A stretch of DNA of 64,000 nt from an uncultured Pseudomonadota bacterium. Its GTDB lineage: Bacteria > UBA10199 > GCA-002796325 > 1-14-0-20-49-13. Below, in pieces: positions 1,831 through 40,317 of the stretch. The position numbers and the translations under genes were made by a program. Location of the stretch: contig CAZYHS010000002.1 in assembly GCA_964647545.1 (NCBI GenBank), positions 34,695-98,694 of the forward strand, written 5' to 3'. The notes below the pieces were generated by a model. The model did no database searches, had not been told where the DNA came from, and saw only the letters and a list, made by a program, of their open reading frames with translations. Numbering within the stretch: the stretch's first letter is position 1; each line of letters opens with the position of its first letter.

Positions 1831-1855
1831 AGCCCGCTTGTTTTAGGGCCTTCAC

Positions 1856-2962
1856 ATGGCACAAAAGATCGAACAGGACATAAAACGTTTTCGCGACATC
1901 ATCCGCGGACGGATTAAAAAAGAGCTTAAAAAGTTCATCACCAGTTCCGAGCTTATCGGTAAAAAAGGTAAAGAGCTGGTGAGCATTCCGATTCCGCAGA
2001 TCGACATTCCGCACTTTGTCTATGGCGACAAAGAACAGGGTGGTGTTGGTCAAGGCGAAGGCGAAAATGGCGCGCCGCTCTCCCCCGGCGATGGGGACGA
2101 AGGGGCGTCGAAGGCCGGCAACGCGCCCGGCGAACATCTCCTTGAGGTCGAGGTCTCGTTTCAGGAGCTTGCAGAAATTTTAGGCGAAGAACTGGAACTG
2201 CCTAAGATTCAGCCGAAGGGCCACAGTGAAATCGAAAGCGCCAGAGTCCGCTACACGTCGATCGGCATGTCGGGGCCCGAATCTCTCAGACATTTCAAAA
2301 GAACCTACCGTCAGGCGCTCAAACGCCAGATCATGAGCGGCAGTTACGATCCTAAAAATCCGGTCATCATTCCCGTGCGCGAAGACAGACGTTATCGCAT
2401 GTGGAAAGAGGAGAAAAAACCCGAGACCAAGGCCGTTATTATTTACATGATGGATGTTTCGGGCTCGATGGGCAACGAACAGAAGGAGATCGTAAGACTT
2501 GAGGCCTTTTGGATCGACGCATGGCTTAAAAGCCAGTACAAAAATCTCGAGACCAAATACATAATCCACGACGCCGTAGCAAGAGAGGTCGATCGCGAGA
2601 CGTTTTTCCACACGAGAGAGAGCGGCGGAACGATAATTTCTTCGGCCTACAAAATGGCCTTAAAGATGATAGAAGAAAAATACAGTCCTCAAGAATGGAA
2701 TATTTATCCGTTCCATTTTTCCGACGGAGACAACTGGAGCGGCAACGATACCGACGAGTGCATTAAGCTTTTAAAAGAGCAGATCCTGCCGGTAGCCAAT
2801 GTTTTCTGTTACGGGCAGGTCGAGAGCGAATACGGAAGCGGGCAATTTTTGAAGGACCTAAATGAAAAACTTCCCAACGTTGAGAATTTGATCACGTCGA
2901 AAATCGAAAATAAGGACGCGATTCCTGCATCGATCAAAGATTTTTTAGGCAAGGGCAAATAG
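1856..2962 (+). CDS. yeaH: YeaH/DUF444 (UPF0229) protein with a C-terminal vWA/MIDAS domain
   Basis: It has the basic N-terminus typical of DUF444 and the MIDAS motif MMDVSGSMG. It sits 25 nt downstream of prkA and immediately before spoVR. Confidence 0.75.
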
Positions 2963-2965
2963 ACT

Positions 2966-4448: not shown

Positions 4449-5201
4449 TTAAACGGTCGGAGTTCTTACACGTCTAATTACCATTGCAACCACCGGCGCG
4501 ATTATCATGCATGCGATCGACCCGAGGACCTTTTCGCCTATCGAAAAGGTGATGACGGTTCCGAAAAGGGCGATGGAAATATAAAAGAGCGGGTTGAAGA
4601 AACGCAACACGCCGCTTAACTTCAGGTTCGGATACCTAAGCCATCTGTTTTCTATCAGTTGAAAAATAAAGATGACCGTGAATGACACAAGCAGCCAGCC
4701 CAGAAAATTTGAGATGGGGACGCCGAAGTAGAGCCCGCCGTTCGGGTAATAGTATATTTTCCCCAGAAACCATCTATCTCCAAGCTTTGTCACGGGGTCG
4801 ATTATCACGTCGAGCAGCATGACCAGCCATGCGCCGAAAAGAGCCGTACGAAAATTTGCAAAAGTGTAGATCTTCTTTTGCTCGGAAATTTCGGTGCCTG
4901 TTTCGCCCAGAATAAAACGCGCGGTCGTAAGCCCCGCGAAAATCATGAAAGGATAGGATAGCGAATCCCAAAAAGGGACCCCCATGACCATAGGTTCGCC
5001 TTGCATGTTTTCGTAAATGTAATGATAGATCCCGTACGGAAATCCGTTGTTGATCGACGAAACCTCGCTGGCCCAAGCGATAAAATAGCCGAGCACGAGC
5101 CAGATGAACGTCTTTTTCCATCCCCAATAGATGCGTCCCAAAAAGATGAATGCCGCGAGAAACGCAAAAACGTACGGGCGGTTGATAAGCATTGCCAGCA
5201 T
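4449..5201 (-). CDS. Polytopic integral membrane protein (6-7 predicted TM helices), family unassigned
   Basis: The 250-aa ORF is rich in W, F and Y hydrophobic segments and is convergent with spoVR. Its start is 3 nt from the stop of the downstream epimerase gene on the same strand. I could not assign the function from sequence. Confidence 0.6.
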   Translation of the reverse strand: MLAMLINRPYVFAFLAAFIFLGRIYWGWKKTFIWLVLGYFIAWASEVSSINNGFPYGIYHYIYENMQGEPMVMGVPFWDSLSYPFMIFAGLTTARFILGETGTEISEQKKIYTFANFRTALFGAWLVMLLDVIIDPVTKLGDRWFLGKIYYYPNGGLYFGVPISNFLGWLLVSFTVIFIFQLIENRWLRYPNLKLSGVLRFFNPLFYISIALFGTVITFSIGEKVLGSIACMIIAPVVAMVIRRVRTPTV

Positions 5202-5204
5202 GGG

Positions 5205-6206
5205 TTAGATCCTCCCTTTGTTTGTAAAATATTCCAGCGCGTCTTGAAGGGTTTTTTCAAGCGGCCGTTCGGCCTGCCAGCCGAGCTCCATTTTTGCCAG
5301 CCGCGAATCCAGAAAGAAAGGAAATTCGCTGCCGGCGATCGTCTCGCGCAATTTTTTTACGGGAACGATTTTTGCCGCGGTTTTTATGACGCGGAAAGGC
5401 AATGGAAAAGAGATCGGCTTTCTGCCCGAGATTTTTTTTAGCATGCCGAACAGTTCGGTCAACATGACGTTCGTTCCGCCGATCAGATAACGCTGCCCGA
5501 CGCTTCCTTGTGTGATGGCGTTGATATGGGCGCTTGCCACGTCTCTAACATCGACAATATTGAATCCGGTTTCAAAAAAGAGAGGGACTCGGCCCCTTAG
5601 ATAGGAGAGCAAAAGTTTGTTCGGCGCGGTAAGGTTGATGTCGTTTGGTCCCATTACGGCGGTCGGATTGAGAATAACGGCTTCAAGCCCAAGATTTGCC
5701 GCCCCTTTGACATGTTCTTCGGCGAGATATTTGCTGTGACCGTAATCGAGCATCATATCGCCGAGCGTGCTTGGGCTTTGTTCGTTCAGTTCTTTTCCGA
5801 TGAGACCTTTTGAGCGTCTTGTCTTAGACGATATTCTAAGCGTTTCACAGCTGCTTGTATAGACGAGCCGTTTAACGCCAGCTTTTATTGCGGCCTCGAC
5901 GACGTTCATCGTGCCGCCGAGATTGGTGGCGATATAATCTGCCAGCCCGAATTGCCCGCTCTTCACAAGAGCTGCGGTGTGGATAACGACCTTTGCTTTG
6001 GCAACAGCTTTGCACACGTCGGAAGGATTTCGAATGTCTCCAAAGAAAAGTTCGAGTTTGTCGGCGATCGAATCGATATTTTCGAGGCTGGAACCTTTGC
6101 GCACAAATCCGGCGACGGAAAAGCCGCGTTTGACAAGCCCTCGCGCGATGTGAGAGCCGATGAATCCGTTGGCCCCCGTTATCAGGATCTTTTCGTTAAG
6201 GCTCAT
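5205..6206 (-). CDS. NAD-dependent epimerase/dehydratase family protein (HpnA / dihydroflavonol-reductase-like)
   Basis: It has the Rossmann motif ILITGANGFIGSHIARGLV near the N-terminus. The likely start is MSLNEK at 6206, and the longer ORF reaching 6251 would overlap the response-regulator gene. Confidence 0.8.
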   Translation of the reverse strand: MSLNEKILITGANGFIGSHIARGLVKRGFSVAGFVRKGSSLENIDSIADKLELFFGDIRNPSDVCKAVAKAKVVIHTAALVKSGQFGLADYIATNLGGTMNVVEAAIKAGVKRLVYTSSCETLRISSKTRRSKGLIGKELNEQSPSTLGDMMLDYGHSKYLAEEHVKGAANLGLEAVILNPTAVMGPNDINLTAPNKLLLSYLRGRVPLFFETGFNIVDVRDVASAHINAITQGSVGQRYLIGGTNVMLTELFGMLKKISGRKPISFPLPFRVIKTAAKIVPVKKLRETIAGSEFPFFLDSRLAKMELGWQAERPLEKTLQDALEYFTNKGRI

Positions 6207-7150
6207 TTGCGCATCATCTGGAGGAAAATTTTGACTATCTGAGGGTTCCATTGGCCGGAGTTGATCTCGTCTTCAATGATCTGCAAAGCGCGTTCGACCG
6301 GCAGCGCTTTGCGATAAGGTCTGTCGGTCGTCATTGCATCGAACGAATCGGCAACGGCAAGTATCATTCCAAACAGAGGGATCTGGTCGCCTTTGAGACC
6401 GTCGGGATAACCGCCTCCGTCGTAACGCTCGTGATGATGTCTTATGCAGGGGAGCGCCTCTTCGATCGATTTCAGTCGGCAGCATATTTCGTAACCGCGC
6501 AGCGAATGGCTCTTAACGTGGGCCATCTCTTCATCGGTTAGTCTGCCGGGCTTGAGCAAAATATCTTCTCTTACGCCGATCTTGCCGATGTCGTGCAGCA
6601 GTCCGCCTTTGCGGATAATCTCGATCTCGCGCTGCGAAAGTCCCATGCGCTTTGCGATATCGACAGAATGTTGTGCGACCCGCTCGGAATGGCCGCGAGT
6701 GTAAATATCCTTAGCTTCGAGCGCCCCTGCGAGAGAAAACAGAACGCTTTCGCTGGTGTCGAGGTCGTCGTGGAGCTCTTTCATTCTCAATAGCGATTTG
6801 ATTCGTGTGAGAAGCTCAAGCTTATTGAACGGCTTGACCAAAAAGTCGTCTGCCCCCAGTTCAATGGCTTTCAATTTGTCGTCTAACTCCTGAAGCGCGG
6901 TGATTACGATGACCGGAACGAACTGGGTCTCTTTGTTTTGCTTGATCCAGCGGCAGACTTCGAATCCGCTGATTTTCGGCATCATTAAATCGAGCAAAAC
7001 CATATCGGGAGGCGCCTTCGATATTTTTTGGAGAGCTTCTTCGCCATCAAACGCGACATCTATTTGATAATCATAGGGTTTTAACTGGGCTTTGAGAAGT
7101 TCGACATTAACTTTATTGTCGTCAACGATGAGTATTTGCGGCTTTGGCAT
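6203..7150 (-). CDS. Response regulator with a receiver domain and an HD-GYP domain (c-di-GMP phosphodiesterase type)
   Basis: The N-terminal receiver reads ILIVDDNKVNVELL ... LLDLMMP. The C-terminal HD-GYP reads LLHDIGKIG ... HHERYDGGGYPDGL. Confidence 0.85.
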   Translation of the reverse strand: MPKPQILIVDDNKVNVELLKAQLKPYDYQIDVAFDGEEALQKISKAPPDMVLLDLMMPKISGFEVCRWIKQNKETQFVPVIVITALQELDDKLKAIELGADDFLVKPFNKLELLTRIKSLLRMKELHDDLDTSESVLFSLAGALEAKDIYTRGHSERVAQHSVDIAKRMGLSQREIEIIRKGGLLHDIGKIGVREDILLKPGRLTDEEMAHVKSHSLRGYEICCRLKSIEEALPCIRHHHERYDGGGYPDGLKGDQIPLFGMILAVADSFDAMTTDRPYRKALPVERALQIIEDEINSGQWNPQIVKIFLQMMRK

Positions 7151-7934: not shown

Positions 7935-8606
7935 ATGATTTTCATGAGCACACGAGAAGAACTTCTAAATATTTTCGAAGTGCTCTTAAAGCACTTTGGC
8001 CCGCAGAAATGGTGGCCCGCCGATTCGCCCTTCGAAGTGATGGTCGGCGCCATCCTTACGCAAAATACCAGCTGGTCAAACGTCGAAAGGGCGATAGCAA
8101 ATTTAAAGAACGCTAAGCTGCTTGACCCGCGAAAAATGCTTCGCCTTGACGCCGAGACGCTCGCAAACTTGATAAGACCCGCAGGCTATCCCAACGTAAA
8201 AACAAAAAGAATACAGAATTTTCTAAGATTTTTCGTCGAAGAGTTCAATGCGGACGTTGCGAAAATGGGGCGCGAGAGCGTCGATTCGCTTCGTGAAAAA
8301 CTCTTGAGCGTGAAAGGCGTGGGGCCGGAAACGGCCGATTCGATTTTGCTTTACGCGCTCGCAAAGCCCGTATTTGTTTGCGACGCCTACACCCACCGCA
8401 TTTTTTCTAGGCACGGCATGTTAGATGAAGGAGTCTCTTACGACGACGTGCGCGCTCTATTTATGGACAACCTCCCAAACGAAGAAAAGCTTTTCAACGA
8501 ATATCACGCGTTGATAGTTAAGACCGGCAAAGATTTTTGCCGGCCGCGTCCAAAGTGCGATTTGTGCCCGCTTGGGGCGCTGCTGAAAAAGCCTCTTAAG
8601 GTTTAA
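7935..8606 (+). CDS. HhH-GPD superfamily DNA glycosylase (endonuclease III-like) with a C-terminal 4-Cys cluster
   Basis: It has an HhH-GPD core (VGAILTQNTSWSNVERA ... GVGPETADSILLYAL) and a C-terminal C-x6-C-x2-C motif. Confidence 0.8.
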   Translation: MIFMSTREELLNIFEVLLKHFGPQKWWPADSPFEVMVGAILTQNTSWSNVERAIANLKNAKLLDPRKMLRLDAETLANLIRPAGYPNVKTKRIQNFLRFFVEEFNADVAKMGRESVDSLREKLLSVKGVGPETADSILLYALAKPVFVCDAYTHRIFSRHGMLDEGVSYDDVRALFMDNLPNEEKLFNEYHALIVKTGKDFCRPRPKCDLCPLGALLKKPLKV

Positions 8607-11181
8607 TTACCGAAAGAACGTAAGCCTTAAGGTCGAGATATCTCTTTGCCGTCGTCAAAACGTCCTGTCGGGTTACTTTTAATATCTTCTGCGGATACTG
8701 TTCCAGTTCGGCGATGCCCAGCCCGTAAAGTTCGTTGTAGGTGTAGCCGCTGGCCAGCGCGCTAACTCTCTGCTGGTCTAATTCGTAGGCTCCAACCATG
8801 TACTGTTTTGCGCGTTCGAGCTCTTCCGGCGAAACAAGCTCTTTGCTTATGAGCGACAGCTCGTTCTTGATGCCGTTAATGGCGGTCTCGGTTTTTGAGG
8901 GGTCGCAGCCGATGTAAACGGCGAAGTAGCCCTCTTCTGGGCCTACGTGCATGGTCGAGTTCACGGCATATGCGAGGCTCATCTTATCGCGCAGCGTCGA
9001 GAAGAGCCGGCCGCCTTGTCCGGCCAGAATGTGATTTAGCACGGCCAGTTTGTAATTGTCAGGCGAGCCGAGATGCGTCCCTAAAAATCCGAGAACGATG
9101 TGGGCTTGCTCTTTCCCCTTTTTTATTTTTTCGGCAGTAACGATATGTTTCGGCCGCACGATCTTTGCCTTTGGGGCTTTGAACCGGCCTATTTTTTTAA
9201 GGTCGATCCAGTCGTTCGCGAGCTTTTTTATCTCTTCGGGATTTACGTCTCCGACGACCGTGATGACAATGTCTGCCGGATTAAGATGGTTCTTCCAGAA
9301 TTTTCTGAGATCGTCGGCGGTCAGCGATGAAACCGTTTCTTTCGTTCCTGTGATGCGCATGCCGTAAGGGTGTTTGCCGTAAAGTGACTTCATGAACTGC
9401 GCAAAGGCCAGCCCCGTCAAATGGTCTTCCTGATTTTTTATCGTTTCGATCTGAAGGGCTTTTTCCTTTTCTACCTCTTTCTTATCGAACGACGGGGCGC
9501 ACATCACCTCGGCGAACATGCCGAAACCGTCGTAAAGTTTTTCACTTAAAAATTCGCAGCGCAGTCCGATAGCATTGCGTCCGCAGACCCCTTCGATCAT
9601 TCCGGCTATCGATTCGATCTTTTTGGCGACTTCGACAGCGTTGCGTTTTGCTGTTCCCTTTGTGATGCTTCTCGCGATGAGGTGTGAGATGCCGTTGTTC
9701 TTCGGAGTCTCGTGTCTTAGCCCGCCGTGCATCGCCGCGTAGATGGCGACAATCGGCAGGACGTGGTTTTCCCGAACGACAAGTTTAATGCCGTTCTTGA
9801 GGCGATAGAGTTTCGGCGCGCTCTTTTGCGATCTTTTCACGACGCTTGTTATTTTGTTCCTTGTGACCGCCGCCTCAAGGGCTTTCGCCGTCGGCTCTAC
9901 CTTCGCCTCTTTTGGGGAGAGGACTTCGAGCGTGCAGTTTTGAGGCGTCAGATATTTCATGGCAACGGCTCGTATCTCTTCGGCCGTCAGGTCGCCGAGT
10001 ACTTGAAAATAGCGCTTTTCAAATTCGTGGTCTCCGGCCGTCGCGGTGAAATAGGCGAATTTTGCCGACATGCCGCCGACCGTTTCCCGTTCGTAAACTT
10101 CGCTTGCGCGAATGTTTATCTTGGCGAGATTGAGCTCGTCGGCCGAAACGGTTTCGGTCGCAATTTTTTGTATCTCTTCCCAGATAGAATCGACAGCTTC
10201 GACAAGTTTTTCAGGTTGAGTGAGACCGCCTATCATGAACAGTCCCGGATATTTCGGCGTGAACGCGTAGCAATAGATCGTGTTCACGAGACGTTTTTTT
10301 TCCTTTACGATCTGCTCGAACCGGCTCGAATCGGCGCCGCCTAAAATGTGGGAAAGGACATCGAGCGCGGCTATGTCGGCGTGCGTAATTTCGGGGACGT
10401 GAAAGCCCATTATGAAATTGGTCGCCTGAATGTCCATCGAGCTTGTGTGAATCTTTAAGTTCGTTTGATGCGGCTCGGCCGGAACTACGACTGTTGGCGC
10501 GATGTTTTCGGGCTGTTTGAAACTTTCGAACGCTTTTGATATCTTTGAGAGCATGCTCTTGGTTTCAAAATCTCCGACCACGATGAACGTCATGTTCTTC
10601 GGCGTGTAGTGGCGCTTGTAGAACGAAAGGACCGTGCTTCGGTCGAACGATTTAACGACGTTTTCAAAACCTATGATGGGCCGGCCGTAAGTGTGCTTTG
10701 AAAATGCGTGCCTAAAAAGATTTTCACTGACGACGTGCCCGGGGTTGTCCTTACCTCTGCGGATCTCTTCGCAGATGACCTCAAGTTCGCGTTCCAGCTC
10801 CTGCTCGTCGAATAGCGGATTAATAACGGCGTCGGAAAGTATTTCGAGGCCTTTGTCCGAAAACCTGCTGGCCATGTTAACGTAAAAAACCGTCTGGTCG
10901 AAGCTTGTGTAGGCGTTTATGTCGCCGCCGGCGGCCTCTATTTCGCGGGCAACGGCGCTCACAGGACGCGTCGGCGTCCCTTTGAAGATCATGTGTTCGA
11001 TAACGTGACAAAGTCCGGCTTCGGCGTTGGTTTCGACGGCCGAACCGACGTTGACCAGAACGCTAAGACTGATGACGGGGGCGGAGTGATTTTCGCACAG
11101 CAGAACATCCATTCCGTTTGGGAGCGTGAATTTTGTAGTTTGCATGCACCGGTTTATAAGTGAGAGGGTGCCAAACGACAA
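8596..11181 (-). CDS. Tandem-domain M16 (pitrilysin/insulinase) family zinc peptidase
   Basis: The inverted zinc-binding motif HxxEH (CHVIEHMIFKGT) lies near the N-terminus. At 861 aa it is consistent with two fused M16 active/inactive halves. Confidence 0.85.
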   Translation of the reverse strand: MSFGTLSLINRCMQTTKFTLPNGMDVLLCENHSAPVISLSVLVNVGSAVETNAEAGLCHVIEHMIFKGTPTRPVSAVAREIEAAGGDINAYTSFDQTVFYVNMASRFSDKGLEILSDAVINPLFDEQELERELEVICEEIRRGKDNPGHVVSENLFRHAFSKHTYGRPIIGFENVVKSFDRSTVLSFYKRHYTPKNMTFIVVGDFETKSMLSKISKAFESFKQPENIAPTVVVPAEPHQTNLKIHTSSMDIQATNFIMGFHVPEITHADIAALDVLSHILGGADSSRFEQIVKEKKRLVNTIYCYAFTPKYPGLFMIGGLTQPEKLVEAVDSIWEEIQKIATETVSADELNLAKINIRASEVYERETVGGMSAKFAYFTATAGDHEFEKRYFQVLGDLTAEEIRAVAMKYLTPQNCTLEVLSPKEAKVEPTAKALEAAVTRNKITSVVKRSQKSAPKLYRLKNGIKLVVRENHVLPIVAIYAAMHGGLRHETPKNNGISHLIARSITKGTAKRNAVEVAKKIESIAGMIEGVCGRNAIGLRCEFLSEKLYDGFGMFAEVMCAPSFDKKEVEKEKALQIETIKNQEDHLTGLAFAQFMKSLYGKHPYGMRITGTKETVSSLTADDLRKFWKNHLNPADIVITVVGDVNPEEIKKLANDWIDLKKIGRFKAPKAKIVRPKHIVTAEKIKKGKEQAHIVLGFLGTHLGSPDNYKLAVLNHILAGQGGRLFSTLRDKMSLAYAVNSTMHVGPEEGYFAVYIGCDPSKTETAINGIKNELSLISKELVSPEELERAKQYMVGAYELDQQRVSALASGYTYNELYGLGIAELEQYPQKILKVTRQDVLTTAKRYLDLKAYVLSVIKP

Positions 11182-11205
11182 GACAAAAGTACGACCAAAG
11201 ATGCT

Positions 11206-12021
11206 CTAATAAAGGCGTTGATTGGTGCCGAATCGTGTGACGACCACGGCGCCAAGCCCCATGAACCATAGCATAGTTTTGACGAACGCTCCGACGACGG
11301 GGATAAGCGCGATCAAACCGATGGCTACAAATCCGACAAGGACCTCAAGCAGCATTGGTTGGTTCGGTTTTTTTATGGCGTTGAAAAATTTCAAACCGAT
11401 GAGCTGGCACATCGCCGCAAATCCGAAGAAGGTTGCGGCCGATACAAGCACTACAAGAACTGGGATCAGCGGAATTCCGACTATCGTTATAAGCAGCATT
11501 ACGCTTACAGGCGCCAGCAAAATGCTAGCGGCGATTCCGGCCAGAAGAGCTTTCCAAGGATGCATCTGCGTGAAATGCGAAACTCTGCCGATGTGAGCCG
11601 TGAAAAACAGGGCGCAAAGAATTAAAAGTGCGAACATCCCAGCGAGTATCAGCAGCGCGAGCGCCGCGACCACCCAGCTTCCCAGCAGGGGGAGAGTCAG
11701 CCACATTCCGTCGGTAGGAAGGCTTATCGGAGCTTTGGCGAAAAACGCCCCTTCACCTTTTTCGGTGTCGCCGAAGAAGACGACCGTGGAGCCTTCGACC
11801 CGTCCGCTTGGGCCCACTTCGACGTCGCCGCCGATGACAATAAGGTCTTTTGTAACCGTGCCCGACAACGCAACGTCGCCGCCGATGACTACGACGTGTT
11901 CGAGTTGATCGCCTGAGGGGATCGAAACATCTTCGCCGATCTTAACCAGATCTTTTGCCAGAGATGTCGCCGGAATTAGTGCAGCCGCCAATAGACAGAC
12001 GATCAATAGTTTTTTCAGCAT
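11206..12021 (-). CDS. Secreted/membrane protein with an N-terminal signal peptide, a short beta-helix-like (bactofilin/DUF-like) repeat region and a polytopic C-terminal membrane domain
   Basis: The start MLKKLLIVCLLAAALIPATSLA has a strong RBS (ggggga) 8 nt upstream. The longer ORF to 12072 lacks an RBS. The repeats read DVALSGTV / IVIGGDVEVGPSG. It lies immediately upstream of, and co-directional with, the M16 peptidase gene. Confidence 0.65.
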   Translation of the reverse strand: MLKKLLIVCLLAAALIPATSLAKDLVKIGEDVSIPSGDQLEHVVVIGGDVALSGTVTKDLIVIGGDVEVGPSGRVEGSTVVFFGDTEKGEGAFFAKAPISLPTDGMWLTLPLLGSWVVAALALLILAGMFALLILCALFFTAHIGRVSHFTQMHPWKALLAGIAASILLAPVSVMLLITIVGIPLIPVLVVLVSAATFFGFAAMCQLIGLKFFNAIKKPNQPMLLEVLVGFVAIGLIALIPVVGAFVKTMLWFMGLGAVVVTRFGTNQRLY

Positions 12022-12178
12022 GATTCCCCCTGTTTTTTTGTAATAATTACACCCGTAACGGGTTTTAGTCAACGGTGCCCTAGCGTCTCTTGCGTTATTT
12101 CCTGCCCATTTTATGACGACGCTCGGGCAATTATTTCCAGTTGCACTTTGAGGTCCATGCGGCTAAAAGTCCGCACCT

Positions 12179-13888
12179 ATGCGTTATCCGTTGTTTTGCT
12201 CGCTGATACCGTCCGAATTTTTATCCGGACTCGGTGCAAGGCACGAGCTTCTTACACACGACAAGCTGAAGGGGTTTGTCCCTTGCGAATATCAGTGCGT
12301 CTTTCACGAAAACCTTTGTTCTTATTCGAAGGTTCTTTTCGAGCATATTTCGTCGGCGACTCCCGCCTACGATTTTGTCGTGATCCCGGCCTCGTGCGAC
12401 GCTATGCGCAAGTTGTATTCGGCGCTGCAGGAAAAACTTCCGCGCGAGAAGCTTTTCTATTTCGATTTTCCGCGCGGCGGCGATCGTCTGGCGGTAGAGT
12501 TTTTTGCCGGAGAGTTGGCGAGGCTGAAGGAATTTGTCTCTTCTCATCCCCTAGGCATTGATCGGGAATCAGCTGCGTTCAATGGATCCCAGCTTAATAC
12601 CGCAGAAATGACAGCCGGTGCCGACATCACTTTGCCCGAAGAGGCCGCGAAAGGCGTCGGCGTGATCGGTTCGAACGTTGACCAGACCGCAATATCAAAG
12701 GCCGCCGAACTTTTTGGCGTGAAGCTTGTCGGAATATCCCGATGTATCGACAGAGCGGCCCCCGACGCTGCGATCATGAAAATGGTTTCGTCCAAAGCCT
12801 CTTTGAAAGAACTCGCGGCGGCTTACATAGACAGCAACCGCTGCCCGCGCAGCTTCAGGCCGCAGCGCCCGAAAGATATCGCTTCCGACGTTAAAAAAAG
12901 CGGCGTCAGCGCGCTTATTATCAGCACTTTAAAATTTTGCGATTTTTATCCGTTCGATCTTGTCGAGCTTGGGCGCGAACTGAAAGATATGCCCGTTTTA
13001 ATGCTCGAACATGATCTTACGTCAACAGACGAAGGGCAGATCATGACAAGACTTGGAGCTTTTTTTGAAAGTGTTTTCAGAGGTCGGCCCCGCGGCCCGT
13101 CCAAAAAACCTGTCGCCGGTTTTTTCGCCGGCGTCGATTCGGGCTCTCACGCAACAAAGGTCGTCATTGTGGACGGAAGCGGAAGATCGGTCGCCGAAGC
13201 CGTCGTCGCTACCGGAACTTCGGTGAAAAAGAGCGCGGAAGAGGCCCTCAAAAAAGCGATGAACGATTCAGAAATTTCGCGCCGCGACATTTCGCGCATC
13301 GTCGCCACCGGCTACGGAAGGGCCAATATAGATTTCGCCGACGAAAGAGTGACCGAGATCACCTGTCACGCGCTGGGGGCTCACGCGCGGCTTGGACACA
13401 AGGTCACCATCATCGATATCGGAGGTCAGGATTCAAAGGCCATCAGGGTCGCCTCCGACGGTTCGGTTGAAAAGTTCGCGATGAACGATAAATGCGCCGC
13501 AGGCACCGGACGCTTTCTGGAGGTCATCGCAGACCGTCTCGAAATGTCGTTGAGCGAATTTGCACAAATTGCCGGTCGAGCCAAAAAAGCGACTCCGGTG
13601 TCAAGCATGTGCTCGGTCTTTGCCGAGTCGGAGGTTATTTCGCTCATCGCGTCGGGCCAGCCGAAAGAGGCGATCGCAAAGGGGATACACGAAGCCATCG
13701 CCCTGAGAACGGTATCGCTTGTCAGACGCATAGACGGCGCCGAACCTTTCTATATGACCGGCGGAGTCGCCAAAAATCTTGCGCTGGTGGAAGAATTATC
13801 CAAAGGGCTCAACGCCGAGCTCAAGGTCGTGACGAATCCGCAAACGGTCGGCGCGCACGGCGCCGCCATATTTGCCTCCAGAATTTAG
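12179..13888 (+). CDS. 2-hydroxyacyl-CoA dehydratase/benzoyl-CoA reductase family subunit (N-terminal ~300 aa) fused to a C-terminal CoA-substrate-specific enzyme activase (BadF/BadG/BcrA/BcrD ATPase)
   Basis: The N-terminus (YPLFCSLIPSEFL) is of the HgdB/HgdA dehydratase type. The C-terminal half has the actin-like ATPase motif AGVDSGSHATKVVIVD and both cluster-bridging cysteines characteristic of HgdC-type activases (ITCHALGA; NDKCAAGTGRFLE). Confidence 0.75.
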   Translation: MRYPLFCSLIPSEFLSGLGARHELLTHDKLKGFVPCEYQCVFHENLCSYSKVLFEHISSATPAYDFVVIPASCDAMRKLYSALQEKLPREKLFYFDFPRGGDRLAVEFFAGELARLKEFVSSHPLGIDRESAAFNGSQLNTAEMTAGADITLPEEAAKGVGVIGSNVDQTAISKAAELFGVKLVGISRCIDRAAPDAAIMKMVSSKASLKELAAAYIDSNRCPRSFRPQRPKDIASDVKKSGVSALIISTLKFCDFYPFDLVELGRELKDMPVLMLEHDLTSTDEGQIMTRLGAFFESVFRGRPRGPSKKPVAGFFAGVDSGSHATKVVIVDGSGRSVAEAVVATGTSVKKSAEEALKKAMNDSEISRRDISRIVATGYGRANIDFADERVTEITCHALGAHARLGHKVTIIDIGGQDSKAIRVASDGSVEKFAMNDKCAAGTGRFLEVIADRLEMSLSEFAQIAGRAKKATPVSSMCSVFAESEVISLIASGQPKEAIAKGIHEAIALRTVSLVRRIDGAEPFYMTGGVAKNLALVEELSKGLNAELKVVTNPQTVGAHGAAIFASRI

Positions 13889-13897
13889 GGAACGAAA

Positions 13898-15193
13898 ATG
13901 GGTGCTAAACAAAAAATAGCCGGCGTCGGCATGAAATTCGTTAGAAAGGGGACGCTCGATCCGGCAAAGATGCTGAAGATAATGTCGCCGGTCGATAGAG
14001 TCCTGTCGCGAAATCTGTCAAAGACCGGCAGATACATTCGTCGGAATCAGCTCAAATACATCGCCGAAGCGCTAAAGGCCGAGAACCTGCGCGCATGGAC
14101 GAGCGTTCTTTTTCCGGCCGAAATTCTTCATCCGTTCGGGGTTTTACCTCTGAGTCTTGAGATACTTTCCGGAATTTTTTCAACTGTCGGGCTCTCGCGC
14201 GAGTTCCTCAATATTTCTCAGTCGTTCGGAGCGCCTCAGACGATATGCTCGTTTCACAGGCTGCTGGTGGGGCTTGCCAAGAGCCGATATTTCGCTCCGC
14301 CTAAATTTGTTGCGGCGACCTCGTTACTTTGTGACGGCAATCTTAAATCGTTTGCCGAAGCGGCCCGCGAAAGCGGCTCGGAGTTCGTTTATCTCGACAT
14401 CCCGTTCGAAGAAACAGCCCATTCGGTAAAATATTTGAAAGAGCAGCTTGAGGCCGCGGCCAGAAAGTTTGCCGAGGGGACGGGACAGAGATATTCGCTC
14501 GATGCGGTTAAACACTCGGTCACGCTGGCCGATAAGGGGCTCAAGCTCCTTTCGGACATCTGGAGCAAAAGGATCTCGGAACAGAACAATCTTTTTCGCG
14601 GCTACGAAATGGCGAACTTCTGTTTTCCGTCGCACTATCTTTTGGGGAGCCCGCTGCTTATCGACCTTTCTAACCGTGTTCTTAAAGGTCTTGCCGACAA
14701 AACCGACCGCAACAAAAAATACAAGACCCGCGCCCTTTCTAAAAAGGCAAAGCGCCTTATGTGGATGCACATCGTTCCTCAATACGACACGCGCATGTGG
14801 GATCTGCTCGACGACGGGGTTAATGCAAAGATCGTCTGTGAGGAGTACACGGCCCCGTATTGCTTTGGCTATGACGTGAACGACCCGTTCGGCTCGATAG
14901 CCCGCCGTTTGATACGGCATCCGTCTAACGGGCCGCTCTCCAGACGCGTCGAACACTCTCTTAGCGTGGCGAAAGATTTTAATGTTGACGGAGTCGTCCA
15001 TTATTCGAGCTGGGGATGTCATCAGGCGACGGGGAACGTCTCAATAATTGAAAAAGAATTTGAAAAGTGGGGGTTTAAATTTTTAAATCTCAACGGCGAC
15101 GCGGTTGACGCCAACAATACGACATTTGAGCAGCATCGCACACGCATTGAGGCCTTTCTCGAAGACATGTTCAGCACCGCGTCTTTGAAATGA
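13898..15193 (+). CDS. 2-hydroxyacyl-CoA dehydratase family subunit (HgdA/HgdB-like partner)
   Basis: The C-terminal region (GVVHYSSWGCHQATGNVSIIEKEFEKWGFKFLNLNGDAVD ... HRTRIEAF) matches the conserved C-terminus of the 2-hydroxyglutaryl-CoA dehydratase family. It starts 9 nt after the upstream activase-fusion gene. Confidence 0.7.
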   Translation: MGAKQKIAGVGMKFVRKGTLDPAKMLKIMSPVDRVLSRNLSKTGRYIRRNQLKYIAEALKAENLRAWTSVLFPAEILHPFGVLPLSLEILSGIFSTVGLSREFLNISQSFGAPQTICSFHRLLVGLAKSRYFAPPKFVAATSLLCDGNLKSFAEAARESGSEFVYLDIPFEETAHSVKYLKEQLEAAARKFAEGTGQRYSLDAVKHSVTLADKGLKLLSDIWSKRISEQNNLFRGYEMANFCFPSHYLLGSPLLIDLSNRVLKGLADKTDRNKKYKTRALSKKAKRLMWMHIVPQYDTRMWDLLDDGVNAKIVCEEYTAPYCFGYDVNDPFGSIARRLIRHPSNGPLSRRVEHSLSVAKDFNVDGVVHYSSWGCHQATGNVSIIEKEFEKWGFKFLNLNGDAVDANNTTFEQHRTRIEAFLEDMFSTASLK

Positions 15194-15240
15194 TAAACTG
15201 GGGGTTTTAGGCTCTAAAGGCCGGAATGACATCGTAAACA

Positions 15241-15345
15241 GTTAATTCGGTTAGGTCCGTTATTTCCGTTAACGGACTAAACGGAAATATCCGAACTAAC
15301 GGAATTAACCGAAATAACCGACGCAACTGGCCTAACCGAATCAAC
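15241..15345. repeat. Intergenic repeat element built from degenerate CCGTTAA / CGGTTAG / TAACCGA-type units (copy 1 of a dispersed family)
   Basis: It reads ...ggtccgttatttccgttaacggactaaacggaaatatccgaactaacggaattaaccgaaataaccgacgcaactggcctaaccgaatc... It has internal hairpins (tatttccgtt / aacggaaata). Motifs such as ccgttatttccgtt, gaattaaccga and ctaaccga recur at 26791-26883 and 38515-38596. Confidence 0.7.
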
Positions 15346-15346
15346 A

Positions 15347-15490
15347 AATTCAGGCGACTTATGTTTCAAGGGCCTCTCGCAGATCGATGCATCAAATGGC
15401 CTTGGTGCCGCATCGATCGAGAGTGGAGGTGCGTTTGCAGGCCGCAACCTGCAAACGACACAGTCCCTTGAAACATAAGTTGCCTGAAAG
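15347..15490 (+). other. Highly structured ~140-nt element: a 26-bp terminal inverted repeat enclosing two internal hairpins. It is a candidate cis-regulatory RNA or a miniature inverted-repeat element upstream of ogt.
   Basis: The outer arms are ttcaggcgacttatgtttcaaggg (15347-15372) and cccttgaaacataagttgcctgaa (15465-15490), which are complementary with one G-U position. Inner hairpin 1 spans 15374-15423 (ctctcg-ca-gatcgatgc ... gcatcgatcgagag). Inner hairpin 2 spans 15432-15457 (cgtttgcagg ccgcaa cctgcaaacg). It ends 45 nt before the ogt start. Confidence 0.6.
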
Positions 15491-15534
15491 TGTGTTCGGG
15501 AGATCCCCGCTTAATATCGCGGGAATGACAATGA

Positions 15535-15828
15535 ATGTTTAAAAATATTCAAATCGATTTTTCAAAGCTCGGCGGCACGCCTTTTCAAAACCGCGTCTGG
15601 AAAGAAATTCACAAGGTAAAATTCGGCAGAACTCTCACTTACAAAGAGCTCGCGCGTCGCGTCGGCCGGCCAAAAGCTTACAGAGCCACAGCTTCCGCGT
15701 GCGGAAAAAATCCGCTCCCGCTAATTATTCCGTGCCACAGAATTGTCGCGTCGAACGGCATCGGCGGGTTTTCGCTTGGCGTCGGACTGAAGCGGTGGCT
15801 TCTTTCGATCGAAGGCCTTTCCTACTGA
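15535..15828 (+). CDS. ogt: Short methylated-DNA-protein-cysteine methyltransferase (Ogt/MGMT C-terminal DNA-binding/active-site domain only)
   Basis: It has the active-site PCHR motif (IIPCHRIVASNG) and a helix-turn-helix (LTYKELARRVGRPKAYRA). At 97 aa it lacks the usual N-terminal domain. Confidence 0.8.
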   Translation: MFKNIQIDFSKLGGTPFQNRVWKEIHKVKFGRTLTYKELARRVGRPKAYRATASACGKNPLPLIIPCHRIVASNGIGGFSLGVGLKRWLLSIEGLSY

Positions 15829-15843
15829 AAATTCTTTTAACTT

Positions 15844-17118
15844 TTAATCGGCTTTTTTAGGCTCCTCTTTGAGAAAGCGAATGGCCGTAAAAAATCCCAG
15901 CAGCGCTAGCAGAGCGGTTGGATAGAAAGCAAAAGTGTAGCAGCCAAAGACGTCTTTTGCCTGACCGGAAATTATTCCTCCGACAATCGCGCCGATCCCG
16001 TAGGCCAGAAAGAGCGTGCCGTAGTTTCTTGCGTGATTTGCAACTCCGAAATAGACGGCGGTTGAAGTGGGGGCTATCGCAAGCCAGCCTCCTAGGCACA
16101 GCCAAAATCCAGAAAATGCCGCAACGTAAAGGGTGACGCTCTCAGGTTTGGCAAAAAGCATCAGGACCGACATTGCAAAAATGACGGCGAAATTTATTGC
16201 CGCCGCAGTGCGTGGAGATGTCCTGTCGGTGATGGCTCCGAAGAGTGGGCGTCCGACAGCGTTGAAAAGGGCGAAAATCCCTACAAGTCCGGCGGCTGTC
16301 GTGCCGGTCATTTTGATGACCTCGCTCCCGACAGGTTTTGAAATGCCTATCGCCATAAGGCCGGCGATGCTGCCGGCCAGAAAACAGACAAACAGACCCC
16401 AAAACTTTCTTGTTCTTAGCATTTCAGGGACAGAGAAATTTTTTTCCGTCGCTTGGACTCTTTTTGGCCGCCAGCCCGAAGGCTTCCAGTTTTTTGGCGG
16501 CAGGGTGAATAGCATGGAAAGCAAAACAAGCGCCCCCGTGAAGGCCAGTCCGAAGATTATAAATGTGTTCGGCAGCGAGATCGCCAGCTCTTCGGGGAGG
16601 AGTTCGTGAATATCTCCGATAAGTATGATGGCTATCTTGCCGGTTAAGAACGCCGATCCGCCGAAGCCGGCCAGCATTAACCCTGTGGCAAGCCCTTGCC
16701 GGTCCGGAAACCATCGGGCGCCGACGGCAATCGGACACGGATAGACCAGCCCGACTCCCGAGCCGGCAATAACACCGTAAGTCAAAACCAGCATCCACAC
16801 GTTGGACGCAAATCCCGAAAGCATCCAGCCAAGACCAACCAGCACGCTCCCCGCGAGGGCCATTTGTCGCACTCCGAACTTCTCTATGAAAAAACCGCCG
16901 ACAAACATCGTCACCGAAAAACAAAGTATGAATGTCATGAACGGAAAATTGCCGTGAGAAGCCGACGCTTCGAAAAGTTTTTCGACGGCCGGTTTAAAAA
17001 TGCTGTAGGTGTAAACGCTACCGAGGCAGAGATTCATTGCAAAGCCAGCAGCCACAAGCAGCCATCGGGAATTTTCCGGCTTGAGTCCGAACAGACGTTC
17101 GCTCGTCAGGTTTTCCAT
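15844..17118 (-). CDS. MFS transporter (oxalate/formate antiporter-like subfamily)
   Basis: It is 424 aa with 12 predicted TM helices and an MFS-type two-half layout with a central cytoplasmic loop (PPKNWKPSGWRPKRVQATEK). Confidence 0.8.
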   Translation of the reverse strand: MENLTSERLFGLKPENSRWLLVAAGFAMNLCLGSVYTYSIFKPAVEKLFEASASHGNFPFMTFILCFSVTMFVGGFFIEKFGVRQMALAGSVLVGLGWMLSGFASNVWMLVLTYGVIAGSGVGLVYPCPIAVGARWFPDRQGLATGLMLAGFGGSAFLTGKIAIILIGDIHELLPEELAISLPNTFIIFGLAFTGALVLLSMLFTLPPKNWKPSGWRPKRVQATEKNFSVPEMLRTRKFWGLFVCFLAGSIAGLMAIGISKPVGSEVIKMTGTTAAGLVGIFALFNAVGRPLFGAITDRTSPRTAAAINFAVIFAMSVLMLFAKPESVTLYVAAFSGFWLCLGGWLAIAPTSTAVYFGVANHARNYGTLFLAYGIGAIVGGIISGQAKDVFGCYTFAFYPTALLALLGFFTAIRFLKEEPKKAD

Positions 17119-40279: not shown

Positions 40280-40317
40280 AGTTTATCCTGAAAATCTGTT
40301 TTAATTTCGCGCATCTT

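What the first reader, a model, noticed from the sequence alone, without database searches (positions are those of the whole stretch)
12179..15193. Orphan radical 2-hydroxyacyl-CoA-dehydratase-like pair with the ATP-dependent activase fused to one subunit
Gene 1 fuses a dehydratase-type subunit to a C-terminal HgdC/BcrAD-type activase, and both cluster-bridging Cys motifs are present. Gene 2 is the partner dehydratase subunit, 9 nt downstream. There are no acyl-CoA-metabolism genes nearby, so the substrate is unknown. Such YjiL/YjiM-like systems are widespread but functionally undescribed. They probably catalyse an ATP-primed ketyl-radical dehydration or reduction.
Basis: partly seen in the sequence, partly recalled or inferred. 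Interest (0 to 1): 0.5.

Follow-up and report, generated by a model that had tools for sequence, protein, structure and literature searches.

The report
Fused double-cubane-type ATP-driven radical reductase pair
Two adjacent genes encode a compact ATP-powered iron-sulfur enzyme of the benzoyl-CoA-reductase/2-hydroxyacyl-CoA-dehydratase superfamily; its subunit and cysteine layout looks more like a benzoyl-CoA-reductase-type reductase with a double-cubane electron store than like a dehydratase, and its substrate is still unknown.

Summary
Gene 1 (12179-13888, 569 aa) is a shortened HGD-D domain fused to a complete BcrAD_BadFG activase. Gene 2 (13898-15193, 431 aa) is a full HGD-D subunit.

The interpretation needs refining. 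The fused N-domain has six invariant cysteines. They align one-to-one with the six [8Fe-9S] double-cubane ligands of BzdN, and with six of the seven DCCP/YjiM cysteines. This is the "class III DCCP" predicted in a 2020 review but never characterised.

Gene 2 keeps only the three cysteines, the Glu and the Trp of the catalytic subunits HadB and BzdO. Its model matches those subunits best (TM 0.74-0.83).

In all 35 related fused loci with readable flanks, the only conserved neighbour is this partner. Reverse-order fusions and unfused three-gene versions also exist.

I read it as a self-contained reductase: the ATP-driven activase passes electrons to a double-cubane store and then to a catalytic [4Fe-4S] subunit. 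That is the cofactor layout of a Bzd-type benzoyl-CoA reductase, not of a dehydratase.

The substrate is unknown. One deltaproteobacterial clade embeds the pair in an inositol-lipid operon. In the window, a lactate-type transporter lies just downstream.

Verdict: a new variant of a known kind, of moderate interest.

The parts
12179..13888 (+). Gene 1, 569 aa: the fusion protein. It has a six-Cys HGD-D/DCCP-type domain, a flexible linker and a BcrAD_BadFG activase (archerase).
   Evidence: ORF. Pfam and NCBIfam matches. AF2 model with pLDDT 82.7. Foldseek hits for both halves. About 120 full-length homologues share the same architecture.
12179..13075 (+). N-terminal domain (residues 1-299). This is a shortened beta/N-type HGD-D domain with a predicted [8Fe-9S] double-cubane site. 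The ligand codons are C7 12197-12199, C47 12317-12319, C73 12395-12397, C189 12743-12745, C222 12842-12844 and C254 12938-12940. H27 (12257-12259) sits where the seventh, non-ligand Cys of DCCP/YjiM lies.
   Evidence: The six Cys are invariant or 100% conserved. The profile-to-PDB alignment puts them on BzdN C36/73/100/263/293/327 and on the DCCP Cys (ligand list from PMC11971306). The best PDB sequence hit is DCCP, E 5.9e-32. The helical intermediate domain is largely missing: residues 130-156 are disordered in the model, and there are 115 residues between Cys3 and Cys4 against 162-170 in BzdN/DCCP.
13076..13120 (+). Inter-domain linker (residues 300-314), variable in length and sequence.
   Evidence: Low pLDDT (block mean 54) and no secondary structure. 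The columns are gappy and variable in A1.
13121..13885 (+). Activase (archerase) domain (residues 315-569). It is an ASKHA ATPase with the two Cys that, in a dimer, bridge one [4Fe-4S] cluster: C439 (13493-13495) and C478 (13610-13612).
   Evidence: TIGR00241 scores 252.9 bits against a cut-off of 125.4. Identity is 40-42% and TM 0.86-0.92 to MbdQ, HadI and HgdC. The nucleotide motifs G318-D320-G322-S323-T326, D413-G415-G416-Q417-D418-S419-K420 and G528-G529 are invariant.
13898..15193 (+). Gene 2, 431 aa: the alpha/O-type (catalytic-type) HGD-D partner with a three-Cys site for a [4Fe-4S] cluster that has one open iron. Ligand codons are C117 14246-14248, C145 14330-14332 and C374 15017-15019. 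Invariant E88 (14159-14161) and W67 (14096-14098) are also present.
   Evidence: Pfam HGD-D, E 1.3e-58. Only these three Cys are conserved across 39 partners. They align with HadB and with BzdO C95/C128/C380, and E88 aligns with BzdO Glu65 (PMC11971306). The AF2 model has pLDDT 88.7, and its best folds are HadB, BzdO and MbdO at TM 0.74-0.83. The partner is adjacent to the fused gene in every related locus with a readable flank.

Best explanation
The two genes encode a self-contained, three-module, ATP-driven low-potential (radical) reductase of the BCR/HAD/DCCP superfamily.

Proposed mechanism:
1. Two copies of gene 1 dimerise through their C-terminal activase domains, which share one [4Fe-4S] cluster (C439 and C478 from each chain). 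This gives an (alpha-beta)2 assembly with two partner subunits.
2. A cellular low-potential donor (ferredoxin or flavodoxin) reduces that cluster.
3. ATP binding and hydrolysis drives the electron uphill into an [8Fe-9S] double-cubane cluster held by the six Cys of the tethered N-domain. This cluster acts as an electron relay and store, as in BzdN.
4. Electrons then pass across the heterodimer interface to a three-Cys [4Fe-4S] cluster with an open iron site in gene 2. There the substrate binds and is reduced by radical chemistry, with invariant Glu88 as proton relay.

Shown here by computation: the domain architecture, the cysteine and catalytic-residue correspondence to solved structures, the fold matches, and the strict co-occurrence of the two genes.

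Inferred: the identity of the clusters, the electron path, the 2:2 stoichiometry, and that the net reaction is a stoichiometric reduction rather than a dehydration.

The substrate is unknown. It is most likely a common cellular metabolite or lipid rather than an amino-acid-derived 2-hydroxyacyl-CoA or an aromatic CoA ester.
For: Domains and scores.

Activase: 40-42% identical to MbdQ, HadI and HgdC, with both bridging Cys and all nucleotide motifs invariant.

Six-Cys domain: the six Cys are 100% conserved in the fused family. They align on the BzdN [8Fe-9S] ligands C36/73/100/263/293/327 and on DCCP (PMC11971306; PMC7317905). The N-domain's best PDB relatives are DCCP, HadC and BzdN, that is, accessory or electron-storing subunits.

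Partner: exactly three conserved Cys plus E88 (aligned with BzdO Glu65) and W67. Its model matches the catalytic subunits HadB, BzdO and MbdO best.

Co-occurrence: the partner is adjacent in all 35 fused loci with a readable flank, and it is the only conserved neighbour.

Independent gene arrangements: fused then partner, partner then fused, activase-first fusions, and unfused three-gene sets. All keep the six-Cys plus three-Cys pairing.

Seven-Cys proteins: the two examined (E. coli YjiM and L086) are the ones without a partner. This fits a switch of the double cubane from active site to electron store, as proposed for BzdN (PMC11971306).
Against: No cluster has been observed; the cysteine patterns only predict them.

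The N-domain lacks most of the helical intermediate domain seen in BzdN and DCCP, so its cluster environment may differ.

The preference for reduction over dehydration rests on analogy and on the 1:1 fusion, not on data. HadBC-type dehydratases share the catalytic three-Cys plus Glu core.

BzdO His131 is replaced by invariant Asn148.

No electron-donor gene (ferredoxin or flavodoxin) and no pathway genes are linked.

Sequence identity to every characterised enzyme is low for the HGD-D parts (16-26%).
Confidence: 0.55

Rival explanations
1. A true 2-hydroxyacyl-CoA dehydratase, for example a lactyl-CoA-type dehydratase. One ATP-primed electron would be recycled over many redox-neutral dehydrations via a ketyl radical.
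For: Gene 2 has the HadB-type core (three Cys, Glu, Trp), and HadB is its top fold match at TM 0.76-0.83. HadB is also its best NCBIfam hit. An L-lactate-type MFS transporter lies 650 nt downstream in the window. A similar transporter sits downstream of a related unfused system in L079.
Against: The accessory domain has six conserved Cys, not HadC's three. The HadB and HadC equivalog scores are 65 and 28 bits against cut-offs of 750 and 700. There is no CoA transferase, 2-hydroxyacid dehydrogenase, or acyl-CoA dehydrogenase/Etf in the window or as a conserved neighbour in 39 loci. The transporter link is not conserved in the closest relatives. It is established that HAD activators work substoichiometrically, which makes an obligatory 1:1 fusion unexpected; this last point is inference.
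Confidence: 0.15
2. A DCCP-type small-molecule reductase. Catalysis would occur at the double-cubane cluster of gene 1, as in C. hydrogenoformans DCCP, which reduces acetylene, azide and hydrazine in vitro. Gene 2 would be only a structural or regulatory paralogue.
For: DCCP is the N-domain's best sequence relative (E 5.9e-32). The fused six-Cys form was classed as 'class III DCCP' in PMC7317905.
Against: The partner is strictly co-conserved and keeps an intact three-Cys, Glu and Trp catalytic core. The Cys near the DCC opening that is conserved in classes I and II is missing, as in BzdN, where the DCC is an electron store (PMC11971306). NF040772 scores 62 bits against a cut-off of 350.
Confidence: 0.1
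3. A membrane-lipid-modifying reductase, functionally analogous to PlsA/PlsR or Ger, which are BCR/HAD-family enzymes that reduce glycerolipid esters to (vinyl) ethers. It would act on an intact glycerolipid or inositol lipid.
For: In a deltaproteobacterial clade (36-38% identical) the pair ends a conserved, partly overlapping operon: B12-radical SAM, inositol-1-phosphate synthase, PIP-synthase-like CDP-alcohol transferase, GT4, then the fused gene and its partner. The operon is flanked by mannosyltransferases, and in L005 by a 1587-aa PlsA/Ger-like protein. In most other genomes the pair is a stand-alone two-gene module among housekeeping genes, as described for plsAR (PMC9702350).
Against: The lipid context is confined to one clade. 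It is absent from the window, from the closest relatives and from about 30 Firmicutes and Coriobacteriia loci. The architecture differs from PlsA/PlsR (Act1-Act2-Red1-Red2; the PlsA/Ger-like neighbour in L005 is BcrAD_BadFG + DUF2229). No membrane anchor is evident.
Confidence: 0.1
4. A class I (Bzd/Mbd-type) aryl-CoA reductase for anaerobic degradation of aromatic compounds.
For: It has the same six-Cys plus three-Cys cofactor layout and a Glu65 equivalent. MbdQ is the activase domain's best hit.
Against: TIGR03190, TIGR03191 and TIGR03192 all score far below their cut-offs. There is one ATPase type instead of the P/Q pair. His131 is replaced by Asn148. No aryl-CoA ligase, dienoyl-CoA hydratase or ring-cleavage genes are present. 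The family is common in gut Lachnospiraceae, Oscillospiraceae and Coriobacteriia.
Confidence: 0.05

Closest known systems
Bzd/Mbd-type class I benzoyl-CoA reductase (BzdNOPQ, MbdONQP; PDB 8S02, 9GAI)
   Same: An accessory subunit with six Cys binding an [8Fe-9S] double cubane. A catalytic subunit with a three-Cys [4Fe-4S] cluster and a Glu proton donor. Electron input is ATP-dependent, through BcrAD_BadFG ATPases that share a [4Fe-4S] cluster.
   Different: Here there is one ATPase type, and it is fused to the six-Cys subunit. The six-Cys domain lacks most of the helical intermediate domain. Asn replaces BzdO His131. Identity in the HGD-D parts is 16-18%. No aromatic-pathway genes are present, and the equivalog scores are far below their cut-offs.
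Double-cubane cluster protein DCCP/DCCP-R (C. hydrogenoformans CHY_0487/0488; PDB 6ENO, 7YYL) and E. coli YjiM/YjiL
   Same: It is the best sequence relative of the gene 1 N-domain. The six ligand Cys are conserved, and there is a dedicated archerase-type reductase.
   Different: DCCP and YjiM have a seventh conserved Cys. DCCP is a homodimer in solution (PMC7317905), YjiM has no second HGD-D gene next to it, and both have a separate reductase gene. Here that Cys is absent, the reductase is fused, and a three-Cys partner is obligatory.
'Class III' potential DCCPs (Jeoung, Martins & Dobbek 2020, PMC7317905)
   Same: Exactly this architecture: six Cys without the seventh, and the enzyme and its reductase in one polypeptide of about 550 aa. 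Gene 1 is a member by those criteria.
   Different: The class is only a sequence-based prediction, described as abundant in Firmicutes. The section that defines class III does not mention the partner subunit. The window's clade is only 35-38% identical overall to the Firmicutes members (24-25% in the N-domain), has the opposite gene order, and comes from a different, deep-branching lineage.
2-Hydroxyacyl-CoA dehydratases (HadBC-HadI, HgdAB-HgdC, FldBC-FldI, Lcd)
   Same: The same fold for all three modules. Gene 2 resembles HadB (three Cys, Glu, Trp; TM about 0.8). Activation is ATP-dependent.
   Different: HadC has a three-Cys [4Fe-5S] cluster, not six Cys. The activator is a separate protein that acts catalytically. 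The genes are clustered with CoA transferase and dehydrogenase genes.
Plasmalogen synthase PlsA/PlsR and glycerol ester reductase Ger
   Same: BCR/HAD-family enzymes with activase domains fused to reductase domains. They are stand-alone one- or two-gene modules that are widespread in anaerobes. Their substrate is not a CoA ester.
   Different: A different domain organisation (Act1-Act2-Red1-Red2; the PlsA/Ger-like neighbour in L005 combines BcrAD_BadFG with DUF2229 rather than PF06050). There is no detectable orthology.

Membership tests
BcrAD_BadFG / acyl-CoA dehydratase activase (archerase) | Matches the family model above its curated threshold, with an ASKHA ATPase fold | tested here: met
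   PF01869 at 206.5 bits (cut-off 31.5). TIGR00241 at 252.9 bits (cut-off 125.4). TM 0.86-0.92 to MbdQ, HadI and HgdC.
BcrAD_BadFG / acyl-CoA dehydratase activase (archerase) | Two Cys per monomer that bridge one [4Fe-4S] cluster in a dimer | tested here: met
   C439 and C478 are invariant and aligned with the CAAGTG and C(S/T)VFAESE motifs of HadI and MbdQ. Dimerisation and the cluster itself cannot be tested with these tools.
HGD-D (PF06050) BCR/HAD catalytic-component superfamily | Both proteins match the family model above the gathering score | tested here: met
   Gene 1 N-domain 109.4 bits and gene 2 199.6 bits, against a cut-off of 28.4.
Double-cubane cluster proteins (DCCP classes I/II, including YjiM) | Six Cys ligands of the [8Fe-9S] cluster | tested here: met
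   C7/47/73/189/222/254 align with the DCCP, YjiM and BzdN ligand positions.
Double-cubane cluster proteins (DCCP classes I/II, including YjiM) | The seventh conserved Cys next to the cluster opening (7-Cys motif) | tested here: not met
   Position 27 is His. The Cys is absent from all fused and partner-associated relatives examined.
Double-cubane cluster proteins (DCCP classes I/II, including YjiM) | Stand-alone subunit with a separate reductase and no second HGD-D subunit; NF040772 above its cut-off | tested here: not met
   The activase is fused and a partner gene is always adjacent. E. coli yjiM-yjiL has no partner. NF040772 scores 62.3 and 63.8 bits against a cut-off of 350.
Double-cubane cluster proteins (any class) | An [8Fe-9S] cluster is actually bound | not testable with these tools
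   This needs anaerobic purification, Fe/S analysis and spectroscopy or a structure.
'Class III' potential DCCP (PMC7317905) | Six ligand Cys without the seventh, and the enzyme and its reductase in one polypeptide of about 550 aa | tested here: met
   569 aa with the six-Cys pattern C7-X39-C47-X25-C73-X115-C189-X32-C222-X31-C254 and a C-terminal activase.
2-Hydroxyacyl-CoA dehydratase (HadBC/HgdAB type) | Alpha subunit with a three-Cys [4Fe-4S] cluster and a catalytic Glu | tested here: met
   Gene 2 C117/C145/C374 and E88 align with HadB. TM 0.76-0.83.
2-Hydroxyacyl-CoA dehydratase (HadBC/HgdAB type) | Beta subunit with only three Cys ([4Fe-5S]); HadB and HadC equivalog thresholds | tested here: not met
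   The fused domain has six conserved Cys. NF052455 scores 65.3 against a cut-off of 750. NF052456 scores 28.1 against 700.
2-Hydroxyacyl-CoA dehydratase (HadBC/HgdAB type) | Genomic association with CoA transferase, 2-hydroxyacid dehydrogenase, or acyl-CoA dehydrogenase/Etf | tested here: not met
   None in the window. None recurs among the neighbours in 39 related loci.
Class I benzoyl-CoA reductase, Bzd/Mbd type | N subunit with six [8Fe-9S] Cys, and O subunit with three Cys plus Glu65 | tested here: met
   using the ligand lists in PMC11971306.
Class I benzoyl-CoA reductase, Bzd/Mbd type | Two distinct ATPase subunits (P and Q); BzdO His131; equivalog thresholds; aromatic-pathway neighbours | tested here: not met
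   There is a single fused ATPase. Asn148 sits at the His131 position. TIGR03190, TIGR03191 and TIGR03192 score 20-173 bits against cut-offs of 380-454. No pathway genes are present.
Plasmalogen synthase PlsA/PlsR / Ger | Act1-Act2-Red1-Red2 architecture encoded in about 4.2-4.9 kb | tested here: not met
   The domain content differs: there is one activase domain and two PF06050 domains. A PlsA/Ger-like protein (BcrAD_BadFG + DUF2229) is a separate gene in L005. The PlsA architecture is taken from PMC12838417.

The most novel reading that the evidence does not exclude
The pair could be the first heteromeric double-cubane enzyme outside aromatic catabolism. In this reading it is a widespread, housekeeping-type, ATP-driven two-electron reductase whose substrate is not a CoA thioester. 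The substrate could be an intact membrane lipid, as the inositol-lipid / B12-radical-SAM / PlsA-like operon of the deltaproteobacterial clade suggests. One candidate reaction is a missing step of bacterial ether-lipid or inositol-lipid biosynthesis, such as vinyl-ether or ester reduction. That would add a new reaction class and a new physiological role for the [8Fe-9S] cofactor.
Probability: 0.15. Interest if true: 0.75.

Novelty: new variant of a known kind. Interest (0 to 1): 0.45.

Why it matters
The [8Fe-9S] double cubane is a recently discovered cofactor. According to PMC11971306, only one enzyme that carries it (BzdNO) has a defined physiological function.

The analysis here suggests that the widespread 'class III' fused proteins are not stand-alone DCCPs. 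They appear to be half of a heteromeric enzyme built like the benzoyl-CoA reductase core, with the ATPase permanently tethered to the electron store.

That gives a minimal two-gene system for studying ATP-coupled low-potential electron transfer. It also marks a large family of orphan radical enzymes as carrying out chemistry that is still unknown. The family occurs in gut Firmicutes and Coriobacteriia, deltaproteobacteria, Planctomycetes, Thermotogae and uncultured lineages.

The deltaproteobacterial operon offers a concrete, testable lead toward a lipid substrate.

Tried and rejected
1. Conserved neighbours. I clustered 374 neighbouring ORFs from 39 fused loci. Only the partner recurs. A MATE-like transporter appears in 5 loci and a Coriobacteriia-specific ~1000-aa protein in 4. 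The window's M16 peptidase, its upstream 288-aa ORF and its Ogt-like ORF have no counterparts next to relatives.

2. Curated families. I looked for an equivalog name in NCBIfam. All equivalog hits are far below their cut-offs; only the domain-level activase model passes.

3. Literature. I searched for a characterised fused member. Only the 2020 prediction of class III exists in the searchable library.

4. RNA elements. Rfam gave no hit in 11000-16000. No convincing sigma-70 promoter or terminator turned up for the operon.

5. Taxonomy. Exact look-ups gave unnamed records. An Mfd search showed at most 64% identity to unnamed proteins and at most 45% to named ones. The lineage therefore stays unassigned.

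6. Rejected memberships. PlsA/PlsR orthology was rejected on architecture. Methanogenesis marker 15 was rejected because the similarity is limited to the activase domain.

The predicted model coordinates are not exposed to scripts, so the Cys-Cys geometry could not be measured.

Full report
OBSERVATION

Gene 1 is 12179-13888 (+), 569 aa. Gene 2 is 13898-15193 (+), 431 aa. Nine nucleotides separate them, and an AGGGAA motif precedes the gene 2 ATG. Some public gene calls start gene 2 at Met12 (P0123, 420 aa). Homologues align from Met1, so I keep the long start.

Pfam places HGD-D (E 3.6e-31, two stretches) in residues ~1-298 of gene 1, and BcrAD_BadFG (E 7.5e-61) in residues 318-566. Gene 2 is a full-length HGD-D protein (E 1.3e-58). 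NCBIfam's activase domain model TIGR00241 is passed (252.9 bits against 125.4). Every equivalog model (HadB, HadC, BzdN/O/Q, BcrA-D, double_cubane NF040772) scores far below its cut-off.

The two activase cysteines that bridge the inter-subunit [4Fe-4S] cluster in HgdC and HadI are C439 and C478. They sit in invariant MNDKCAAGTG and SSMCSVFAESE motifs. That these positions are the ligands is established knowledge.

SURROUNDINGS

The window is a housekeeping stretch of chromosome. It carries:
- PrkA-DUF444-SpoVR
- a CruF-like and an HpnA-like gene
- a response regulator with an HD domain
- an M16 peptidase
- SMC, Mfd and RecO
- PPDK
- the glycine-cleavage genes, FolD and FTCD
- EPSP synthase

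.

No CoA transferase or ligase, acyl-CoA dehydrogenase, Etf or enoyl-CoA hydratase turned up among the ORFs scanned. The convergent gene 650 nt downstream (15844-17118, -) passes the curated cut-off for the L-lactate MFS transporter family SfMCT (351 bits against 320). This is the only hint of a 2-hydroxy-acid link, and it is not conserved in the closest relatives.

The source organism is a poorly sampled, uncultured lineage. Its Mfd is at most 64% identical to unnamed metagenomic proteins and at most 45% identical to any named one.

THE FUSED SUBUNIT

An alignment of 21 full-length homologues (A1) and one of 37 locus-derived homologues give the same result. Six cysteines of the N-domain are invariant: C7, C47, C73, C189, C222 and C254. 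No other Cys is conserved there.

I searched the PDB with a profile of the N-domain. The best hits were DCCP (E 5.9e-32), HadC (E 2e-25) and BzdN (E 1.1e-16).

In the printed alignments the six Cys fall on BzdN C36, C73, C100, C263, C293 and C327. I counted the residue numbers from the alignment offsets. These are the six ligands of the [8Fe-9S] double cubane listed in PMC11971306.

The six Cys also fall on six of the seven Cys of the DCCP/YjiM motif CX19CX18-19CX29CX166-170CX32-34CX32C (PMC7317905). A direct alignment with E. coli YjiM confirms this. The second Cys of that motif is the non-ligand Cys94 of DCCP, which sits at the cluster opening. Here it is replaced by His27.

This is exactly the 'class III potential DCCP' sketched in the 2020 review: six Cys, with the enzyme and its reductase in one polypeptide of about 550 aa. 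That class is only predicted, and the review's class III passage does not mention a partner subunit.

The AF2 model (pLDDT 82.7) shows two alpha/beta half-domains but only one helix of the helical intermediate domain. Residues 130-156 are disordered. A flexible linker of about 15 residues leads to the activase. Foldseek matches the C-terminal half to MbdQ, HadI and HgdC (TM 0.86-0.92). It matches the N-terminal half to DCCP, HadC and BzdN.

THE PARTNER

Across 39 partners from related loci, only C117, C145 and C374 are conserved cysteines. Within the window's own clade, 23 sequences also share invariant W67, E88 and N148.

Profile-to-PDB alignments put the three Cys on the HadB ligands and on BzdO C95/C128/C380. 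E88 falls on BzdO Glu65, the proton-relay residue included in that paper's QM region. N148 falls where BzdO has His131 (PMC11971306).

The AF2 model (pLDDT 88.7) is closest to the catalytic subunits HadB, BzdO and MbdO (TM 0.74-0.83). It is less similar to the accessory subunits. Gene 2 is therefore the alpha/O-type, substrate-binding subunit.

COMPARATIVE GENOMICS

Proteins with the fused architecture are common. They occur in Lachnospiraceae, Oscillospiraceae, Christensenellales, Clostridium species, Coriobacteriia, Thermotogae and deltaproteobacteria. A reverse-order fusion occurs in Planctomycetes.

In all 35 distinct loci that hold such a fused gene and enough flanking DNA, an HGD-D partner of about 420-445 aa is adjacent. 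Clustering 374 neighbouring ORFs found no other recurrent neighbour.

Gene order differs between clades:
- fused then partner in the window clade and the delta clade
- partner then fused, with overlapping genes, in Firmicutes and Coriobacteriia

Two Planctomycetes loci carry the reverse fusion (activase-HGD-D, 638-641 aa); an adjacent partner is seen in L070. Several genomes have unfused three-gene sets. Every N-type subunit I checked keeps the six Cys.

The two proteins that retain the seventh Cys (E. coli YjiM and L086) are the ones without a partner gene.

The window's own clade is small. A phmmer search of the N-domain against 1.84 billion cluster representatives gave 597 hits at E ≤ 1e-3, but only two at E ≤ 1e-30.

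MECHANISM (best explanation)

The cofactor and subunit pattern is a six-Cys accessory subunit, a three-Cys plus Glu catalytic subunit, and an archerase. That is the pattern of the Bzd-type benzoyl-CoA reductase. In that enzyme the double cubane stores and relays at least two electrons to a catalytic [4Fe-4S]-OH2 cluster (PMC11971306).

I therefore propose the following assembly and electron path:
1. Two fused chains dimerise through their activase domains around one bridging [4Fe-4S] cluster, and each carries one partner, giving alpha2-beta2.
2. Ferredoxin or flavodoxin reduces the bridging cluster.
3. ATP hydrolysis drives electrons into the tethered double cubane.
4. Electrons move on to the partner's open-site [4Fe-4S] cluster, where the substrate is reduced by radical chemistry.

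The architecture, the residue correspondences and the co-occurrence are computed results. The identity of the clusters, the electron path, the stoichiometry and the choice of reduction over dehydration are inferences. The last rests on the double-cubane pattern and on the 1:1 fusion. HAD activators act catalytically (established knowledge), whereas BCR and DCCP consume ATP per electron.

RIVALS

- A genuine 2-hydroxyacyl-CoA dehydratase. HadB is the top fold match and a lactate-type transporter lies nearby. Against it are the six-Cys accessory domain and the absence of any CoA-transferase or dehydrogenase partner in 39 loci.
- A DCCP-like small-molecule reductase with an inert partner. Against it is the partner's strictly conserved catalytic core.
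- An aryl-CoA reductase. Against it are the absence of pathway genes, the single ATPase type, Asn at the His131 position, and the family's distribution in gut bacteria.
- A lipid-modifying reductase (see the next section).

SUBSTRATE LEAD

In a deltaproteobacterial clade (36-38% identical; P0055, P0049, P0037) the pair is the distal end of a conserved operon. The order is:
1. B12-binding radical SAM
2. inositol-1-phosphate synthase
3. PIP-synthase-like CDP-alcohol transferase
4. GT4 glycosyltransferase, whose stop overlaps the start of the fused gene in two of the three loci
5. the fused gene
6. the partner

Mannosyltransferases, DUF2079 and ABC/FtsX genes flank the operon. In L005 a 1587-aa BcrAD_BadFG+DUF2229 (PlsA/Ger-like) protein also lies alongside.

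PlsA/PlsR and Ger are BCR/HAD-family enzymes that reduce intact glycerolipids (PMC12838417, PMC13274423). A lipid substrate is therefore conceivable. The context is specific to this clade, however, so I give that reading about 10-15%.

NOVELTY AND VERDICT

The superfamily and the fused six-Cys class are already known or predicted, so this is not categorically new.

Three points go beyond the literature I could search:
- the obligatory three-Cys catalytic partner
- the resulting BzdNO-like, not HAD-like and not DCCP-like, organisation
- the correlation between loss of the seventh Cys and presence of a partner

The window's clade is a divergent, rarely sampled branch. I rate the finding as a new variant of a known kind, interest 0.45. 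It is a solid lead on an orphan enzyme with an unusual predicted cofactor. There is no functional evidence and nothing that a specialist would find very surprising.

Noticed in passing
window 15241-15345: The intergenic region after gene 2 holds an array of 9-nt periodic units (TAACGGAAN / TAACCGAAN). Inverted copies lie to the left, so the whole forms a long imperfect palindrome centred near 15271. No Rfam match.
   Followed up: partly
window 15344-15493: A long inverted repeat: 32-nt arms, 88% complementary, 86 nt apart. It encloses a perfect 10-bp hairpin (15432-15457) and lies just upstream of the Ogt-like ORF (15535-15828). No Rfam match.
   Followed up: partly
window 15844-17118 (-): An MFS transporter that scores above the curated cut-off for the L-lactate transporter SfMCT family (NF049980, 351 bits against 320). 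It is convergent with the gene pair. A 33%-identical MFS gene sits in the same convergent position after an unfused HGD-D + activase pair in L079 (10599-11837).
   Followed up: partly
window 9482-9571 (-): ARAGORN calls a 90-nt tRNA-Arg(ACG) that lies entirely inside the 861-aa M16 peptidase ORF (8596-11181, -). It is probably a false positive.
   Followed up: no
window 22-4444 (+): The conserved PrkA - DUF444 (YeaH) - SpoVR (YcgB) triad, a stress and starvation-associated module.
   Followed up: no
window 4449-6251 (-): A CruF-like carotenoid hydratase family protein (PF04240), followed by an HpnA-like NAD-dependent epimerase (TIGR03466, 241 bits, below cut-off). These are possible isoprenoid-lipid tailoring genes 6-8 kb upstream of the pair. 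No link to the pair was established.
   Followed up: no
L005 3377-11059; L090 3496-11228; L091 3638-9638 and 14611-15924: The deltaproteobacterial clade has the operon B12-radical SAM - inositol-1-P synthase - PIP-synthase-like - GT4 - fused - partner. In L091 an MmeI-type restriction-modification gene and a PhdYeFM/ParE toxin-antitoxin pair are inserted between the fused gene and its partner.
   Followed up: partly
alignment of partners from L007-L061 (position equivalent to window gene 2 S370, 15005-15007): 62% of the partner proteins have an extra Cys four residues before the third cluster ligand (C-x3-C). The window clade has an invariant Ser there. This may mean a different fourth ligand or cluster environment in those members.
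   Followed up: no
L036 859-3493; L049 5236-7903: Two Coriobacteriales loci (L036; Olsenella L049) carry two tandem partner paralogues upstream of the fused gene.
   Followed up: no
window 38597-54349 (-): A cluster of C1/folate genes on the minus strand: formiminotransferase-cyclodeaminase, glycine cleavage P1/P2 and T, and FolD.
   Followed up: no
window 54390-57926 (-): Mfd is at most 64% identical to unnamed metagenomic proteins and at most 45% identical to any named protein. The window therefore comes from a deep, poorly sampled bacterial lineage, whose taxon was not resolved.
   Followed up: partly
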